Notes under the pieces: model-generated | Told to the model about the DNA's origin: nothing | Seen by the model: the letters and a program-made list of their open reading frames with translations, nothing else | Database searches by the model: none | IMG/VR virus record: IMGVR_UViG_3300006120_000043 | Location: 1 to 37,985 of that record | Reading direction: 5' to 3' (one strand) | DNA length: 37,985 nt | Origin: a virus | Lineage: Duplodnaviria > Caudoviricetes | In this document: piece by piece, positions 13,245 through 20,223 of the stretch | Layout of the letters: each line of letters begins with the position of its first letter | Numbering within the stretch: position 1 is the first letter of the stretch | Made by a program: the position numbers and the translations under genes

Positions 13245-13740
13245 TCATTCTCTCCAATAGCTCAGATGTACGACCCCAAGCATACGATCCATTTACCTTA
13301 AACCCACGTTTTGCATGAATTTTCAAGAAGGCATCCTGCTCCGACCGTATGCTGCTCGAACAAATAACAGGAATACCGCAATGTGCCGCCCACAATATGT
13401 GCTGGTCAATCATCGCATTAACCAGTTTATACCTCGTTCTTACCGGCAACGCAAGGTTAACATGGTGGAACTTAGCATTACTAATCTCATCCCTAGAATA
13501 AGTCGTATATCCACCACGGTCAAACCAACAATACCCCAGCAACTTCTTTCCGTCCCAGCATCCCGCTAAGAACTCCTTACTCTTATCAAACAACTGATTA
13601 GTAGCCGTAACAGTAACGTGCTGTCTAAACACATTCTTGTCCCTTACCACAAATCCATCACTCTCAGCCCCGTAAATCCCATCAGCCATCTCTACAACAG
13701 CCTCTACATCCGTCCTCGGATCAATCAGTTCCCATCTCAT
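13234..13740 (-). CDS. GNAT-fold acetyltransferase-like protein, first gene of the late operon
   Basis: 'LLGYCW', 'FHHVNLALPVR.R..LV' and 'FLKIHAKRGF' match GNAT motif spacing. Confidence 0.6.
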   Translation of the reverse strand: MRWELIDPRTDVEAVVEMADGIYGAESDGFVVRDKNVFRQHVTVTATNQLFDKSKEFLAGCWDGKKLLGYCWFDRGGYTTYSRDEISNAKFHHVNLALPVRTRYKLVNAMIDQHILWAAHCGIPVICSSSIRSEQDAFLKIHAKRGFKVNGSYAWGRTSELLERMNAS

Positions 13741-14297
13741 TTCTATTCCTTTGGTGTCGTTTTACCGTAAGAGAGAGTAAACACTCTGGTGCGTAGTATA
13801 AGCTGACTTAGAAAAGTTTTTGTAAAAAATTTGGGAATGGGTGACTGGGCCTCCCCCCTCTGCCACCGCTCCAGCCCTACCCCCTCCCCCCTGCCCCTAC
13901 GCTTTCCCTCTGAGAATAGGGGGGGATGAAAAGATTTAGGTAGGGGCCGCTCTCTTTTATGTTTTTGTTTTAATAGTGATTAACTTATAAACAATGAATT
14001 AATCGCTGATGTTCTAGAAAATGCTTTAATGCTCTCTTACTGTTTCCCTTACTGTTTTCCCTCTATTGATTAGGAGAACAGAGACTGGCCTTGGTGCTTT
14101 TCTTTTCTTTTTTCTTTGCGCGATTTCCGTCTTATGTTTTGCCCTGCCTTGTTTACTTGCTGGGTCAACTTGGCACGATCTTTGCCAATAGCTATTAATA
14201 CACTTGAGCTATCAATAATCAAGTGTCAATAGTTTTTAACTAACTACTGTATATAAAACCATTAGGGTTTTCAGTTGAGTTTTTTTGTGCTTTTTTG

Positions 14298-14326
14298 TTG
14301 CCTTGGTGTATAGGCATGCTTATAAT
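14298..14326 (+). promoter_or_regulatory. Sigma70 promoter of early island
   Basis: TTGCCT-17 bp-TATAAT with T-rich UP element upstream; palindrome ATAGGCATGCTTAT overlaps spacer and -10. Confidence 0.8.
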
Positions 14327-14382
14327 CTAGCCATGCTCTACACCAGAGCATCTTAGAAAGTAAACCTTAAAGGGAGTGAAAA

Positions 14383-14697
14383 ATGTCAGACTTAAAAGAT
14401 CACGTTCAATCTATTGCCAAGACTCTCAGCGAGGGCTTCGGTGACGATCTCAACTATGAGGGCGAATCGTTCTCAGCTTTTGACTATCTTCAAGACGCCT
14501 TAGATATCGAATACATCATCAATAGAGATCGTGAGTATTTAGGCGCTCGGATTCTTGTCGCCTTCGGCGGCCCTAACATCTGGGTCAACACCCGCACGGG
14601 TACGGTTGAGGGCCACTGGTGGGGTGACAGTGCATCCGCTGGGTTCAAAGACTCTATCGGCCTCGATGAGGCATTGTCTGAACTTTATAACTGCTAA
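14383..14697 (+). CDS. Acidic early protein (GGPNIW motif), unknown function
   Basis: 104 aa, GGGAG RBS, first ORF after a strong promoter. Confidence 0.8.
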   Translation: MSDLKDHVQSIAKTLSEGFGDDLNYEGESFSAFDYLQDALDIEYIINRDREYLGARILVAFGGPNIWVNTRTGTVEGHWWGDSASAGFKDSIGLDEALSELYNC

Positions 14698-14708
14698 GAG
14701 GTGACGGC

Positions 14709-14801
14709 ATGAAAAGCCTATTAACTGACCTTATCCGCGCTCTTGTCTTTGTGGCCTTGTTTGCAGGGCCAGCCGCTCTCATGATGTATTTAAAGGGGTA
14801 A
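14709..14801 (+). CDS. 30-aa hydrophobic peptide
   Basis: Not in the ORF track; GAGGTG RBS; MKSLLTDLIRALVFVALFAGPAALMMYLKG fills the gap between two genes. Confidence 0.65.
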   Translation: MKSLLTDLIRALVFVALFAGPAALMMYLKG

Positions 14802-14804
14802 ACC

Positions 14805-15002
14805 ATGTTAACTATCAGACACCGTGCACCATACAAAAACAGTCTACCCGTTATTCGGGAGATTGAAGAAAAGACTGCCGACCTATGGCTAAGTTTAGGG
14901 ACGCTCAAAATCAATGACATAGGTTCAGAGAACACCTATTACGAAAATGAGTTTGGGATGCTTTTCTATTGCAAGAATTACCCTCAGACATGGAAGGACT
15001 GA
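14805..15002 (+). CDS. Hypothetical early protein
   Basis: 65 aa, AAGGGG RBS. Confidence 0.7.
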   Translation: MLTIRHRAPYKNSLPVIREIEEKTADLWLSLGTLKINDIGSENTYYENEFGMLFYCKNYPQTWKD

Positions 15003-15004
15003 CT

Positions 15005-15163
15005 ATGTTTACACACTATTACAAAGGTTTTTACATTAACGGGCGCTGCGATTGTGATGCCTGCTCTATCACTGACGAAACCGGCCACTTTATAGGACAA
15101 ACTTTCAAAAGTTACCGCGCCGCTCAGATAGCTATCACTAAATTTATTAATAACGTTTTTTGA
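15005..15163 (+). CDS. Hypothetical early protein
   Basis: MFTHYYKGFYING...; AAGGA RBS favours the ATG at 15005 over the track start at 14969. Confidence 0.7.
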   Translation: MFTHYYKGFYINGRCDCDACSITDETGHFIGQTFKSYRAAQIAITKFINNVF

Positions 15164-15165
15164 TT

Positions 15166-15186
15166 AAGGGCCTCGGCCCTTTTTTT
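15166..15186 (+). terminator. Rho-independent terminator
   Basis: AAGGGCC-TC-GGCCCTT followed by a T run. Confidence 0.8.
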
Positions 15187-15290
15187 ATCTCTATTGATTA
15201 AGCTGGCTTTTAGTGGCTGGCTTATCATTGGTGCGCCTATGCTTTGTGTAGGCGTTTGATTGACCTTTTTTTATGTTAAGGGGTTTAACT

Positions 15291-15491
15291 ATGTTTGACA
15301 CTATCACACCCAGCGGGTCAGGCTTTGCCTATGTCTTTGGCCCTGATTTTGATGATGCGCCCGTGATGATCCAACGATTGAGCAAGCCAGTAGAGAGCGG
15401 CGCTCAGTTTGTAAACGTCATTCCTACTGATGGCGGTATGACATACCAGAGCGTGATTTTGCCGCTTTATAACGCCATTGAAGCATTATAA
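15291..15491 (+). CDS. Hypothetical protein
   Basis: AAGGGG RBS before the ATG at 15291 (track start 15273). Confidence 0.55.
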   Translation: MFDTITPSGSGFAYVFGPDFDDAPVMIQRLSKPVESGAQFVNVIPTDGGMTYQSVILPLYNAIEAL

Positions 15492-15595
15492 AAAAGCCCG
15501 ATAAGTATAGTATGGTGACAAGCCCTTAAATTAGGGGCTTTGTTTGGTGTTTTCTTTTAAAATAGCCGCTTGGCTAGGGCTTTGCTTCGCCATGT

Positions 15596-15701
15596 GATTA
15601 TCAGCGGGATTATATAGCGTTATTATATAGCGTGATTATGTATTATTTTGACCGATTATCTCCGATTATATGAGGGGAGGGGGTTAGATAATCAGATAAT
15701 C
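15596..15701. repeat. Array of (G/T)ATTAT hexamers, seven direct and two inverted
   Basis: GATTAT/TATTAT at 15596, 15608, 15621, 15634, 15641, 15654, 15664; ATAATC at 15688, 15696. Confidence 0.7.
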
Positions 15702-15781
15702 ATTGGGTGTTTTTAGGTCTTTTTGTGGTTTAAGACCCCCCATCAATAAATGACCCCCCCATCAAATTTTTAGGGGGCGGC

Positions 15782-17812: not shown

Positions 17813-18237
17813 TGCAAATCTTCCATAACAATAACTTCAACACACGGATGCTCACCGTAAACCTTGCTGACTTGCAGCCTAACAATCTGAGCATCATCAA
17901 CGTAAATAACGCCGTTTAAAGCATCCAAATGAGCTTTAGCTACATTGTCTAGGTCAGGCTTCTTAGTAGGCTTTAAATCGCCTAAAAGGGCCTTTGCTCG
18001 GTCTGCTTTGCTCATTGATTTAGGCATTGGGTAAGCACACATCACATAAACCTTTACAGCACCGGCTAACGGCTCTGAGACACCCATTGCTTGCTTGGCA
18101 GCATCACGGATTTCTTCTTCGTATGCTTTTGTTTTAGCAGGTGTATAGGTTTGTACAAACTTGCCTGTATTGCGAAACCGTGGCCGTCCTTTGCCTTGTG
18201 GCGGGCCTTCAACCCGATAAGTGACCATGAATGTCAT
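17809..18237 (-). CDS. rusA: RusA family Holliday junction resolvase
   Basis: 'PQGKGRPR', 'KKPDLDNVAK...DALNG..Y.DD.QIV.L...K.Y'. Confidence 0.93.
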   Translation of the reverse strand: MTFMVTYRVEGPPQGKGRPRFRNTGKFVQTYTPAKTKAYEEEIRDAAKQAMGVSEPLAGAVKVYVMCAYPMPKSMSKADRAKALLGDLKPTKKPDLDNVAKAHLDALNGVIYVDDAQIVRLQVSKVYGEHPCVEVIVMEDLQ

Positions 18238-18473
18238 TTCTTTGCCTTTCTCTTTGCTACTTCTTTGTTCATTGCTACTCTTAACATATCAGTTGCAGGT
18301 TTTCCTCTTTTTTTCTCTATGTCAATGATGGTGTCTTCCCACCACGTTCTTGCCGCACCAGAGCCAATCTCTCTTGACTTATCAGCATAGCGTCTAAGCC
18401 ACTCTCTCGCCTCAGTCTCTAACAACTGATGCAAGATGCCTTCGTAAGGATTAGTTGAGGCCAACAGCGTCAC
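18234..18473 (-). CDS. Hypothetical protein
   Basis: 79 aa, 'EAREWLRRY' motif, 4-nt overlaps with both neighbours. Confidence 0.7.
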   Translation of the reverse strand: MTLLASTNPYEGILHQLLETEAREWLRRYADKSREIGSGAARTWWEDTIIDIEKKRGKPATDMLRVAMNKEVAKRKAKK

Positions 18474-18678: not shown

Positions 18679-19278
18679 CTATAAAAGCTCATTTTTTTCA
18701 ACAATAATTTTTCTGTAATCTGACAATGCTTTACCGCGCGAAAATCCTGTTATTAAACCTGTAGATTTGTTTTTTCTCCAAACAGTAGAACTTGTTTTGC
18801 CAACGGCAGGTTCAAGAGCAATTGTTTCAAATAATTCAGGCGCTAATTGTTTACGCCAAACATTGATTTTTCTCATGCGCCTTGCACCACCATCAACAAT
18901 GCTTACAACTTCATAACCTAAAGATTTCCAAAATTTATTTGCATCAAGATCAAAGCCGCATCGCAAAGAAACAGAAGTTGCGTAACCTTGATTTGCATAC
19001 TCTTCCATAGCTGAAACTAAAGCAGCGCCATAGTGCCTCATACGAGCGTCATATTGAATGCAAACTTGATGGCATTTAACATGAACACCTTGCGCTCCCA
19101 TGTAAATATATCCACAAGGTTGTCCATTCAAAAGACCTAAAAAAAGCCGTCCTTTTTCCAATTCACGTTCAAAAACTTGTGTTGGATAAAACGACAAAGC
19201 TTCAGCATTTAGCTTTTGCAACTTATCAACATAAAGCAAAAAATCTGGATGCTCTTGAACCACAACAAAATCTATCAT
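18679..19278 (-). CDS. GNAT family acetyltransferase
   Basis: 'HQVCIQYDARMRHYGAALV' (motif A) and 'ANKFWKSLGY' (motif B). Confidence 0.85.
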   Translation of the reverse strand: MIDFVVVQEHPDFLLYVDKLQKLNAEALSFYPTQVFERELEKGRLFLGLLNGQPCGYIYMGAQGVHVKCHQVCIQYDARMRHYGAALVSAMEEYANQGYATSVSLRCGFDLDANKFWKSLGYEVVSIVDGGARRMRKINVWRKQLAPELFETIALEPAVGKTSSTVWRKNKSTGLITGFSRGKALSDYRKIIVEKNELL

Positions 19279-19622
19279 TTGCGGCCTCTTAAAGCGTTTA
19301 ATTTCTCACGGATATGTGCTGGCATAGGCACAGTCTTTTCACGCTCTTCTTGGATGGTTTTAAGCGTGTCTACAGGCTTTCTAAGCTCAGGAACTTCAGC
19401 GCCATCCCACCTTGCTTGATTGAGATAGACAAGCGGTGCTGGAATGAACGCCCCGTTTTGTTTTTTCCAATCGTCTGTAGTCTTTAGCCACTCAACGTGC
19501 TTGATGATTTGCTCTAAATCTACGGAATAGTCGGCACTTATCCATTTCTGCCGACACTTTGATTTAGCACCCTTGCGAGTTGACTTCGGCCATGCTTCCC
19601 AAAATTGTTCAAAAGGTTCCAT
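19275..19622 (-). CDS. Replication protein, only the C-terminal domain of lambdoid O-type initiators
   Basis: 'FEQFWEAWPK..RK..K..C..KW' and 'W.KQNGAFIPAPLVYLNQARWD'; likely start MEPFEQ at 19622 (track start 19736 runs through structured RNA). Confidence 0.75.
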   Translation of the reverse strand: MEPFEQFWEAWPKSTRKGAKSKCRQKWISADYSVDLEQIIKHVEWLKTTDDWKKQNGAFIPAPLVYLNQARWDGAEVPELRKPVDTLKTIQEEREKTVPMPAHIREKLNALRGRK

Positions 19623-19629
19623 TTCGTTT

Positions 19630-19865
19630 TCCCATAGGTTCCCCAAGGGTGAGAAGCTCTCACACCAAGCCCATGCTTTAGCACCAGCTTCCCCTTGAGG
19701 ATGCGATTCATTCGTTAAAGGTCTTGTCATCACCATGTCCCTTTAACTTGTCTGATACCTCGCACACAGTTCAGGAGGGTTATCAACGGGGTGGATCGTT
19801 GCCCTATGTTCTCTTCCAAGCAGCCCATGTAGGCTCTCTGGTTTCGTCTGGAGTACGGCTGCATA
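19630..19865 (-). ncRNA. Candidate multi-helix structured RNA (or ssDNA element) upstream of the replication gene
   Basis: At least seven nested inverted repeats; mismatches on the plus strand read as G-U wobbles on the minus strand. Confidence 0.6.
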
Positions 19866-19920
19866 CATAACTTCCTTTCAAGATTTACTTTCGTTAAAAA
19901 ATACTGTCTAAGTGGAGACG

Positions 19921-20012
19921 AAAAAAAGCCGCTTACTGCTGCCTCCGGTGGAAACCCTTTATAGGGCAGAGGCATGAGTAAACGGCTTCAATCTGTCGCT
20001 TTCCACGGCAAC
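19921..20012 (-). ncRNA. C4 antisense-like (c4-2-type) RNA with pseudoknot and terminator
   Basis: 5' hairpin GTTGC-CGTGGAAA-GCGAC; long stem AAGCCGTTTACT/AGTAAGCGGCTT with inner TGCCTCTG/CCGGAGGCA; loop GTGGAAA complementary to internal TTTCCAC; U7 tail; extended -10 TGTGATACAGT upstream. Confidence 0.7.
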
Positions 20013-20034
20013 AAGGTTACTGTATCACAAAAAT

Positions 20035-20223
20035 TTAGGTTGGTTCAGCTTCTTTCAAAATAAACCAATCCGGTTTCAACACACGCAACTGCCACACTCT
20101 AGCAATCGGCACATTCTTTTTCCATTGGCTCACCGATGGTTGGCTGATACCTAGTAGCTCTGCAAGGCGCTGCTGACCACCAGCTAGTTGAATCGCCTTT
20201 TCCTTTGAGAATTCCATACACAC
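20035..20223 (-). CDS. cro: Cro-like HTH repressor
   Basis: 'AIQLAGGQQRLAELLGISQPSVSQW...VP..R..QL' (P22/N15 Cro type); GGAG RBS favours the ATG at 20217. Confidence 0.9.
   Translation of the reverse strand: MCMEFSKEKAIQLAGGQQRLAELLGISQPSVSQWKKNVPIARVWQLRVLKPDWFILKEAEPT

What the first reader, a model, noticed from the sequence alone, without database searches (positions are those of the whole stretch)
19275..19865. Large structured RNA in place of the origin-binding half of the replication initiator
Seen: about 235 nt with no convincing ORF fold into nested helices: 19857-62/19820-25, a closing pair 19803-08/19633-38, 19753-61/19775-85, 19714-21/19740-47, 19642-49/19692-99, 19667-90 and 19649-63. 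Several pairs work as G-U only on the minus (sense) strand, which points to RNA. The last helix ends about 10 nt before the ATG of a 115-aa protein. Known: that protein resembles only the C-terminal domain of lambdoid O-type initiators, which normally also carry an N-terminal HTH and internal iterons; neither is visible, and no helicase, loader, primase or polymerase is in the window. Inference: this may be an RNA-plus-protein replication module (primer/R-loop RNA or RNA-guided origin recognition), or a complex translational switch for the gene.
Basis: partly seen in the sequence, partly recalled or inferred. Interest (0 to 1): 0.8.

Follow-up and report, generated by a model that had tools for sequence, protein, structure and literature searches.

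The report
Knotted RNA replaces phage replication initiator
This freshwater-type phage carries a 235-base, non-coding element, predicted from matched base changes in over a hundred related phages to fold into several knots, that swaps places with the normal replication-initiator gene among close relatives, so it is likely an RNA-primed replication origin, though no transcript or activity has been measured.

Summary
Real, and larger than reported. The single sequence folds no better than shuffles (z -1.2), but 111 non-redundant homologues show a non-coding, sense-strand fold with five pseudoknots (three statistically supported; G-U 305 versus A-C 5). No Rfam match. The element is the core of a cassette: promoter, a leader with a variable 7-nt loop-bulge match and a terminator, then the core. 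At least eight other elements fill the same slot, one of them Rfam Betaproteobacteria-1. Among 34 phages with near-identical terminases, 16 have an element and no full-length initiator, 17 the reverse, 1 both, 0 neither, with at least five switches on the tree. Complete carriers exist with no recognisable replication gene. The 115-aa initiator C-terminal domain is optional and may lie up- or downstream, so a translational switch is unlikely. Best reading: an initiator-free replicon, likely a ColE1-like RNA pre-primer (0.5); folded ssDNA origin (0.2) and unrelated non-coding RNA (0.15) remain. No expression data. The scan noted the theme, the leader and a sister element on other DNA before.

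The parts
19627..19860 (-). Core structured element (type A), about 235 nt, non-coding
   Evidence: Covariation in 90 and 111 homologues; covariance model scores it 207 bits
19806..19858 (-). 5' domain: P1 (19857-55/19847-45), P2 (19836-32/19825-20), pseudoknot PK1 (19851-49/19818-16), pseudoknot PK2 (19830,19827,19826/19806-08). Shared with slot types D, E, F
   Evidence: P1 333/333, P2 552/555, PK1 331/333, PK2 332/333 cells paired; PK1 and P2 significant, PK2 E 0.18 and 1.7; shared domain
19776..19805 (-). P3 hairpin whose loop holds a near-invariant CACCC (about 19789-93), a copy of the pentamer at the 3' end; partner unresolved
   Evidence: Pairs 19805-19776, 19802-19779, 19800-19785 significant; two or more CACCY copies in 110 of 111
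19701..19774 (-). P4 (19774-68/19759-52) with pseudoknot PK3 (loop 19765-60 with 19706-01), enclosing P5 (19747-40/19721-14)
   Evidence: P4 750/759, PK3 609/666; four PK3 pairs significant; P5
19644..19734 (-). Long-range pseudoknots PK4 (P5 loop 19734-30 with 19652-48) and PK5 (19726-23 with 19647-44); P6 hairpin 19700-19692; lone pair 19697-19685; variable arm about 19690-19655
   Evidence: PK4 552/554 with 19730-19652 significant; lone pair 111/111; PK5 411/440, four sequences with a compensatory change
19627..19643 (-). Conserved unpaired 3' tail (G-rich, then CTATG, then an A-run); candidate RNA-to-DNA switch (inferred)
   Evidence: Position profile of 44 sequences; 27 of 32 in the leader-anchored set; its ATG opens an ORF of 45 aa or more in only 21 of 86
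19921..20014 (-). Leader: small hairpin (19993-20014) whose 7-nt loop (20000-06) is complementary to a bulge (19948-54) in a long terminator-like hairpin (19926-88) ending in seven U (19921-27)
   Evidence: 102 of 102 leaders have a cognate match of 7 nt or more, 19% of non-cognate pairs
20019..20027 (-). Candidate extended -10 promoter for leader and core (inferred)
   Evidence: Read from the sequence; not flagged by the scan; homologues show clearer -35/-10 hexamers at this place
19275..19622 (-). 115-aa free-standing C-terminal domain of a phage replication initiator; optional partner
   Evidence: PHROG 270/9474 C-terminal part; longer relatives carry DUF1376; nearest named Atlas cluster Phg_2220_C
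20035..20217 (-). Cro-like repressor gene upstream of the cassette
   Evidence: PF14549 P22_Cro, E 2e-12

Best explanation
The 235-base element is a conserved non-coding sequence, predicted to fold into five pseudoknots, that trades places with the full-length replication-initiator gene among close relatives, and it likely serves as the phage's initiator-free origin by acting as an RNA pre-primer. Inferred steps: host RNA polymerase starts at the promoter after cro; most transcripts would stop at the leader terminator and give a 95-nt RNA; read-through transcripts fold their first 210 nt into a compact knot, which would leave the G-rich tail hybridised to the template as an R-loop; the tail end would be processed and extended by host enzymes (RNase H, Pol I, PriA-type loading, as for ColE1). 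The variable 7-nt leader match would be the specificity code for copy or superinfection control, the short RNA acting in trans on nascent leaders as P4 CI RNA does. The free C-terminal domain would be an optional helicase-loading adaptor.
For: Shown: conserved sense-strand fold, non-coding. Window's terminase clade: 16 element only, 17 full-length initiator only, 1 both, 0 neither; Fisher p 1.5e-8 (rows not independent); starred branches force at least 5-6 switches. 9 of 9 long contigs of a second terminase clade carry an element and no initiator or DnaB-like helicase in the stretches fetched. Two complete genomes with terminal repeats have no PHROG initiator, helicase, primase or polymerase among 104 proteins. 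Of 25 near-complete type-A records none has a both-domain PHROG 270 match (14 C-only, 2 N-only, 9 none); 0 of 48 have DUF1376 or a PHROG 239 helicase (controls and). The same leader sits directly before a full-length initiator in G135 and a like one in L014. Slot type C ends in 2-3 DnaA-box-like motifs in 9 of 9. A profile of the 3' tail ranks the stretch I take as the ColE1 primer end first of 13,252 positions. Precedent: ColE1 RNA II (PMC8683028), RNA-based prophage origins (PMC7157519), ARRPOF (PMC5737381).
Against: No transcript, RNA end or activity is shown. Type A coexists with a full-length initiator and helicase in G142 and G111, type B in G072 and G073. G001 and G004 carry type A with an SF2 helicase and a primase-like gene. 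In one lineage the cassette lies before the major capsid gene and the genome has a separate HTH Rep-like protein. No homology to the ColE1 origin by HMM or covariance model; the tail match leads by only 1 bit, falls to rank 4 with another window, and was sought after I noticed it. The tail also supplies a start codon in 21 of 86. No plasmid match for types A, B, G. G-U bias does not separate RNA from ssDNA. For types B-I the 17 initiator genomes were searched over about 20 kb of early region only, and unmodelled types would be missed.
Confidence: 0.5

Rival explanations
1. It is an origin, but the folding molecule is single-stranded DNA: the displaced sense strand folds and recruits host PriA, DnaA or primase, like ssi/pas or single-strand origins.
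For: The exclusion pattern fits any origin; G-T wobble gives the same strand bias; type C has DnaA-box-like motifs; PMC5737381 (passage) says RNA and ssDNA motifs are hard to tell apart by sequence; GNRA/UNCG/CUUG loops are barely enriched (23 of 174 sense, 12 of 129 antisense).
Against: Always behind a promoter and terminator in the sense direction; five pseudoknots and lone tertiary pairs (111/111) are typical of RNA folds (own knowledge); a dsDNA phage without a Rep protein has no obvious source of ssDNA other than transcription.
Confidence: 0.2
2. A trans-acting phage non-coding RNA or an antiterminator for the early operon, unrelated to initiation; its link to initiator loss comes from cassette exchange at one hotspot.
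For: Own promoter, movable position, cases with a full replication module; large phage RNAs without known role exist (GOLLD, ROOL; passage in PMC5737381).
Against: Does not explain 0 of 34 genomes with neither, nor how complete genomes with no replication gene start replication.
Confidence: 0.15
3. An RNA-protein initiator: the RNA binds the free C-terminal domain and replaces the HTH in origin recognition (RNA-guided initiation).
For: 110 of 111 C-terminal-domain loci with enough flanking DNA have an element near them (106 upstream; 4 of the other 5 elsewhere on the contig); the P3 loop repeats the 3' pentamer and could read the template strand.
Against: The element does without the protein in 9 of 25 near-complete records; one protein family pairs with unrelated element types A, B, D, E, H; no variable guide segment covaries with a DNA target.
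Confidence: 0.1
4. A translational or attenuation switch for the 115-aa gene.
For: The tail ends 5-10 nt before the ATG here and holds the start codon of the next gene in 21 of 86.
Against: Downstream genes vary widely; the gene lies upstream of the element in six loci, among them GenBank MW202484.1; many carriers lack it.
Confidence: 0.05

Closest known systems
ColE1 replicon (RNA II pre-primer, RNA I)
   Same: Proposed Rep-free, transcription-primed initiation; a variable 5' region of about 100 nt as control element; similar-looking 3' end. ColE1 origins also coexist with rep genes in some plasmids (PMC8683028, passages).
   Different: No sequence or model homology; about 330 nt with leader against about 550; control seems to be a sense-strand terminator, with no opposing RNA I terminator seen; five pseudoknots; in tailed phages.
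RNA-based origins of cluster A mycobacteriophage prophages (PMC7157519)
   Same: A non-coding RNA region stands where related phages have a RepA gene (abstract and passages).
   Different: Those serve plasmid-like lysogeny beside parABS in Actinobacteria; here no integrase, CI or ParA was found in the proteins scanned, the slot is the cro-O position, and no structure is described in the passages read. Sequences were not compared.
ARRPOF, GEBRO, PAGEV motifs (PMC5737381)
   Same: Structured motifs of 223-349 nt tied to plasmid replication; ARRPOF lies in a region that replicates without rep (passage).
   Different: No Rfam match for type A; plasmid-borne in other taxa.
Betaproteobacteria-1 RNA (Rfam RF02932)
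   Same: Occupies the same slot behind the same leader as type G (83.1 bits, gathering 49.4), also in initiator-less genomes.
   Different: Unrelated fold; type A does not match it; no function found in the papers searched (supplement unreadable).
Lambdoid O-type / DUF1376 (YdaU) initiators
   Same: The 115-aa protein is their C-terminal domain and lies in their slot after cro.
   Different: N-terminal DNA-binding domain, iterons and helicase gene are absent.
P4 CI RNA and Gifsy-1 IsrK (PMC4825925)
   Same: A short RNA from the leader that acts on its own read-through transcript and controls replication or antiterminator genes (passages).
   Different: No Rfam C4-type hit; here one 7-nt loop-bulge match inside an intrinsic terminator; trans action is inferred only.

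Membership tests
Any Rfam 15 family (type A core and leader) | Covariance-model match at gathering score | tested here: not met
   0 in the window, only a chance snoRNA hit at E 0.17, none in 20 and 16 loci apart from tRNA and the type G hit
ColE1 replicon | Sequence homology to the RNA II/oriV region | tested here: not met
   nhmmer best E 8; model R1 no match in NC_001371.1; no PLSDB match
ColE1 replicon | No Rep protein needed | tested here: inconclusive
   Genomic absence of initiators in carriers; need not tested; exceptions exist
ColE1 replicon | Antisense RNA I over the 5' end | tested here: inconclusive
   No plus-strand promoter pointing into the leader in the scan; leader ends in a sense-strand terminator
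ColE1 replicon | Persistent RNA-DNA hybrid, RNase H and Pol I dependence | not testable with these tools
   Needs experiment; tail profile match is weak
Lambdoid O / DUF1376 initiator module | Conserved C-terminal domain | tested here: met
   PHROG 270 E 9.5e-12, positions 178-249
Lambdoid O / DUF1376 initiator module | N-terminal DNA-binding domain in the same ORF | tested here: not met
   At most 40 codons open upstream; region not conserved as protein; no N-domain hit in the window
Lambdoid O / DUF1376 initiator module | Iterons in or by the gene; helicase or loader next door | tested here: not met
   Only two-copy short repeats; no DnaB-like helicase
DnaD/DnaT-like helicase-loading domain (for the 115-aa protein) | Shared fold | tested here: inconclusive
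   Model pLDDT 74.6; best Z 5.2 unrelated; SPP1 G39P Z 4.1 (rmsd 2.9, 60 aligned), DnaD domain Z 3.2 (rmsd 3.8, 68 aligned)
Cis-regulatory 5' UTR of a fixed gene | Constant position upstream of one gene family | tested here: not met
P4 CI / P1 C4-type antisense RNA (leader) | Family model match; processing; pairing in trans causing termination | tested here: inconclusive
   No Rfam hit; cognate 7-nt match 102 of 102; trans action untested

The most novel reading that the evidence does not exclude
A widespread group of tailed freshwater phages has replaced protein initiators with a toolkit of interchangeable, highly knotted RNAs (at least nine types, including the orphan Betaproteobacteria-1 motif) that open the origin and deliver the primer themselves, perhaps reading the template through the P3-loop copy of their own 3' end or making their own primer end, with a 7-nt leader code setting incompatibility: RNA initiators for lytic phage replication.
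Probability: 0.3. Interest if true: 0.93.

Novelty: new variant of a known kind. Interest (0 to 1): 0.8.

Why it matters
Many small tailed phage genomes from lakes have no recognisable replication gene; this cassette offers a testable answer. It would extend RNA-primed, Rep-free replication from ColE1-type plasmids and mycobacterial prophages to the O slot of lambdoid-type phages, give the first functional lead for Rfam Betaproteobacteria-1, add a compact five-pseudoknot RNA as a structure target, and supply candidate small orthogonal replicons. A 450-bp cloning test decides it.

Tried and rejected
Single-sequence folding: not significant, and the minimum-energy fold misleads. Expression: no RNA holder listed; no reads could be laid. 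Rfam: nothing for type A or leader. blastn of plasmids and GenBank phages: no match, although MW202484.1 holds a distant type A found through the protein. GTDB pattern scan: 2 of 120 loci are full type A, both on short MAG contigs (one Betaproteobacteria, one Planctomycetota bin), so the host is unproven. Fold and PDB searches of the protein: no clear match. GC skew: minima within 1.2 kb of the element in 8 of 9 genomes but confounded with the divergent promoters; codon-position skew follows the coding strand; not used. DnaA boxes near type A: 5 of 78 upstream, 4 of 86 downstream, not a feature. The tool alignment A2 misregisters P3a, P4 and PK3, so one search counts only the other helices. 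Weak partial type-C-like hits near terminase genes (G137, G138, also G075, G076, G089) were not counted as elements. Metagenome scan: 68 of 120 loci full type A; not used for RNA ends. Nine paper searches found no description; three supplementary files of PMC10690425 and the supplement of PMC5737381 could not be searched and may list this motif. No complex prediction was sent.

Full report
SETTING. The window is a near-complete 38-kb virus record (91%) with terminase, portal, capsid and tail genes, Sak, RusA and a Cro-like gene. The flagged stretch lies on the minus strand between cro (20035-20217) and a 115-aa ORF (19275-19622) that matches only the C-terminal part of phage replication initiators (PHROG 270 positions 178-249 of 383). 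712 relatives of similar length were found; 87 longer relatives were found, many with DUF1376.

OBSERVATION. Homologues settle it. I collected them by three anchors: an internal motif (93 viral loci), the upstream leader (119) and the 3' end (120), plus protein-anchored and metagenome loci. After removing sequences over 90% alike, 90 and later 111 remained; mean identity 58%. On a sequence-only MAFFT alignment, with my own tree-aware null (60 simulations, R-scape-like, not R-scape), 24 of 28,203 column pairs had E below 0.05; 22 are pairs of one structure and 2 are register shadows of one helix. The structure has hairpins P1-P6, a variable arm and five pseudoknots. PK1, PK3 and PK4 are significant; PK2 is paired in 332 of 333 cells but below significance; PK5 rests on near-invariant bases and four compensatory sequences. 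The lone pair 19697-19685 holds in 111 of 111. The tool's own count on the well-aligned helices gave 97.1% paired against 31-46% for slid partners. G-U outnumbers A-C 305 to 5, so the minus strand is the one that folds. Motif-anchored sets fix their own motifs; in the leader-anchored set, free of that bias, 32 of 32 keep the 3' CACCCT(T/A)GG and 27 of 32 the CTAT tail. The element is not coding.

THE CASSETTE. Upstream lies a leader: a small hairpin and a long terminator-like hairpin with a U run. In 102 of 102 distinct leaders the small loop matches a bulge of the terminator over 7 nt or more, with 27 best-match words; 19% of non-cognate pairs do. Promoter-like hexamers precede it. Anchoring on the leader showed that the next 200-300 nt hold type A, or one of at least eight other conserved elements that I label B-I. 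D, E and F share the 5' domain of type A. Type G is Rfam RF02932 Betaproteobacteria-1. Type C ends in 2-3 DnaA-box-like motifs, allowing one mismatch, in 9 of 9 (consensus recalled). Covariation was tested for type A only.

RELATION TO THE PROTEIN. 106 of 111 distinct C-terminal-domain loci with 900 nt or more upstream have an element there; 0 of 13 full-length initiators do. Four of the five exceptions have one elsewhere on the contig. But the reverse does not hold: downstream genes vary, the gene lies upstream in six loci, and complete carriers lack it. G005 and G006, both with terminal repeats, have no initiator, helicase, primase or polymerase among 104 scanned proteins of 60 aa or more. 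Among 25 near-complete type-A records PHROG 270 matches the C-part only in 14, the N-part only in 2, nothing in 9; DUF1376 and the PHROG 239 helicase are absent from 48 of 48 (the DUF1376 search rang in 4 of 5 controls).

CLADE TEST. I took all 33 contigs of 35 kb or more among the 80 closest terminase relatives (79% identity or more), searched them whole for type A and PHROG 270, fetched about 20 kb of early region and scanned for types A-I and replication genes. With the window: 16 have an element and no full-length initiator (A 9, B 3, E 2, G 2; the two G genomes lack the C-domain too), 17 have a full-length initiator, 11 of them with a DnaB-like helicase, and no element, 1 (G142) has both in different operons, none has neither (Fisher p 1.5e-8; rows are related). 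On the terminase tree starred branches force at least 5-6 switches; sister pairs differ (G144/G145, G137/G075) and G151/G152 swap A for B. In a second clade 9 of 9 contigs of 29 kb or more carry an element (A, C, G or partial E-like) and no initiator or helicase hit. In G135 the same leader stands directly before a full-length initiator. This is the pattern of two exchangeable solutions to one job.

AGAINST. Type A coexists with a full-length initiator and helicase in G142 and G111, type B in G072 and G073. G001 and G004 add an SF2 helicase and a primase-like gene. In the G076/G089 lineage the cassette precedes the major capsid gene and an HTH Rep-like protein lies 10 kb away. Dual replicons could explain these, as for ColE1/RepB plasmids (PMC8683028, passages), but that is an assumption. 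There is no expression evidence, and unmodelled element types in initiator genomes would be missed.

MECHANISM. Shown: fold, strand, cassette order, exclusion pattern. Inferred: origin function (about 0.75-0.8 over the first, second and fourth readings), and within it an RNA pre-primer (0.5). Reasons for the RNA reading: fixed sense orientation behind promoter and terminator; density of pseudoknots and lone pairs; an unpaired conserved 3' tail that resembles the end of the ColE1 primer region, ranking first of 13,252 positions by 1 bit and fourth with another window, which is weak and post hoc; and a loop-exposed copy of the 3' pentamer whose own 3' copy is locked in PK4, which could let the loop pair with the template strand (a parallel to the ColE1 G-stretch model, recalled, not checked). 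There is no homology to ColE1. The protein's fold is unresolved; its role as loader adaptor is inference.

KNOWN SYSTEMS AND PAPERS SEEN. PMC5737381: passages, supplement unreadable. PMC7157519: abstract and passages. PMC8683028: passages. PMC4825925: abstract and passages. PMC10690425: 6 supplementary files searched without hit, 3 not searched. Nine searches found no description of this element. It works, on my reading, like ColE1 RNA II or the mycobacteriophage RNA origins, but is a member of neither on the features tested. Earlier notes of this scan describe the same theme on other DNA; none matched this sequence, and the short texts shown do not mention the exchange test or the link to RF02932.

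VERDICT. A real, undescribed, heavily pseudoknotted element that behaves in genomes as a substitute for the replication initiator. New variant of a known kind (RNA-based origin) on present evidence; interest 0.8.

Noticed in passing
L215:1314-1430 (-); G047, G155, G158, G159, G162: Rfam Betaproteobacteria-1 (RF02932) fills the same slot behind the same leader, in genomes without initiators; the conserved element runs about 100 nt past the Rfam model.
   Followed up: partly
L141, L161, L111 and others (type B): Second common slot element, about 225 nt, no Rfam match; by eye it has compensatory stems; covariation not tested.
   Followed up: partly
L213, L229, L244, L249, L257, L259, L267, L278 (type C): Slot element ending in a cluster of direct and inverted DnaA-box-like motifs.
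   Followed up: partly
L219, L232, L256 (E); L226, L262, L268 (F); L211, L218, L231 (D): Mosaic elements sharing the 5' double-pseudoknot domain of type A with different bodies; E ends in a pyrimidine tract then G runs, F in G runs, D in a CTATG tail.
   Followed up: partly
L541:825-881; L245: Tandem extra copy of the 5' domain in front of a full type A, a possible scar of cassette exchange.
   Followed up: no
L654:2327-2615; L668:13938-14191; L669; L670: Leader plus type A inserted just before the major capsid gene in one podovirus lineage that has a separate 214-314-aa HTH Rep-like protein.
   Followed up: partly
L198:6712-7158 (G007); L671:3927-4487 (G094): Initiator C-terminal domains fused to a short N-terminal part that looks like a ribbon-helix-helix (my reading, not tested).
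   Followed up: no
upstream of initiators in G130, G131, G132, G138-G141, G144, G146-G148, G156; L460, L467, L015: A different conserved leader hairpin family precedes most full-length initiators of the clade; no Rfam hit in L015, L460, L467.
   Followed up: no
L872:16951-17138, L873:2562-2740, L917:16132-16271, L654:12606-12761, L668:5152-5329: Weak partial type-C-like matches near terminase genes; possibly another conserved non-coding element.
   Followed up: no
window 18234-18473 (-): 79-aa gene (weak DUF7696 hit) that often follows the C-terminal-domain gene (17 of the loci); possible partner.
   Followed up: no
window 19866-19920: AT-rich spacer of about 55 nt between terminator and core, against about 15 nt in most homologues.
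   Followed up: no
window 13740-15780: About 2 kb with few convincing ORFs between the early and terminase regions; not examined.
   Followed up: no
L667:4505-4758 (GenBank MW202484.1): A public genome holds leader and type A, annotated there as a hypothetical protein, downstream of the C-terminal-domain gene.
   Followed up: yes
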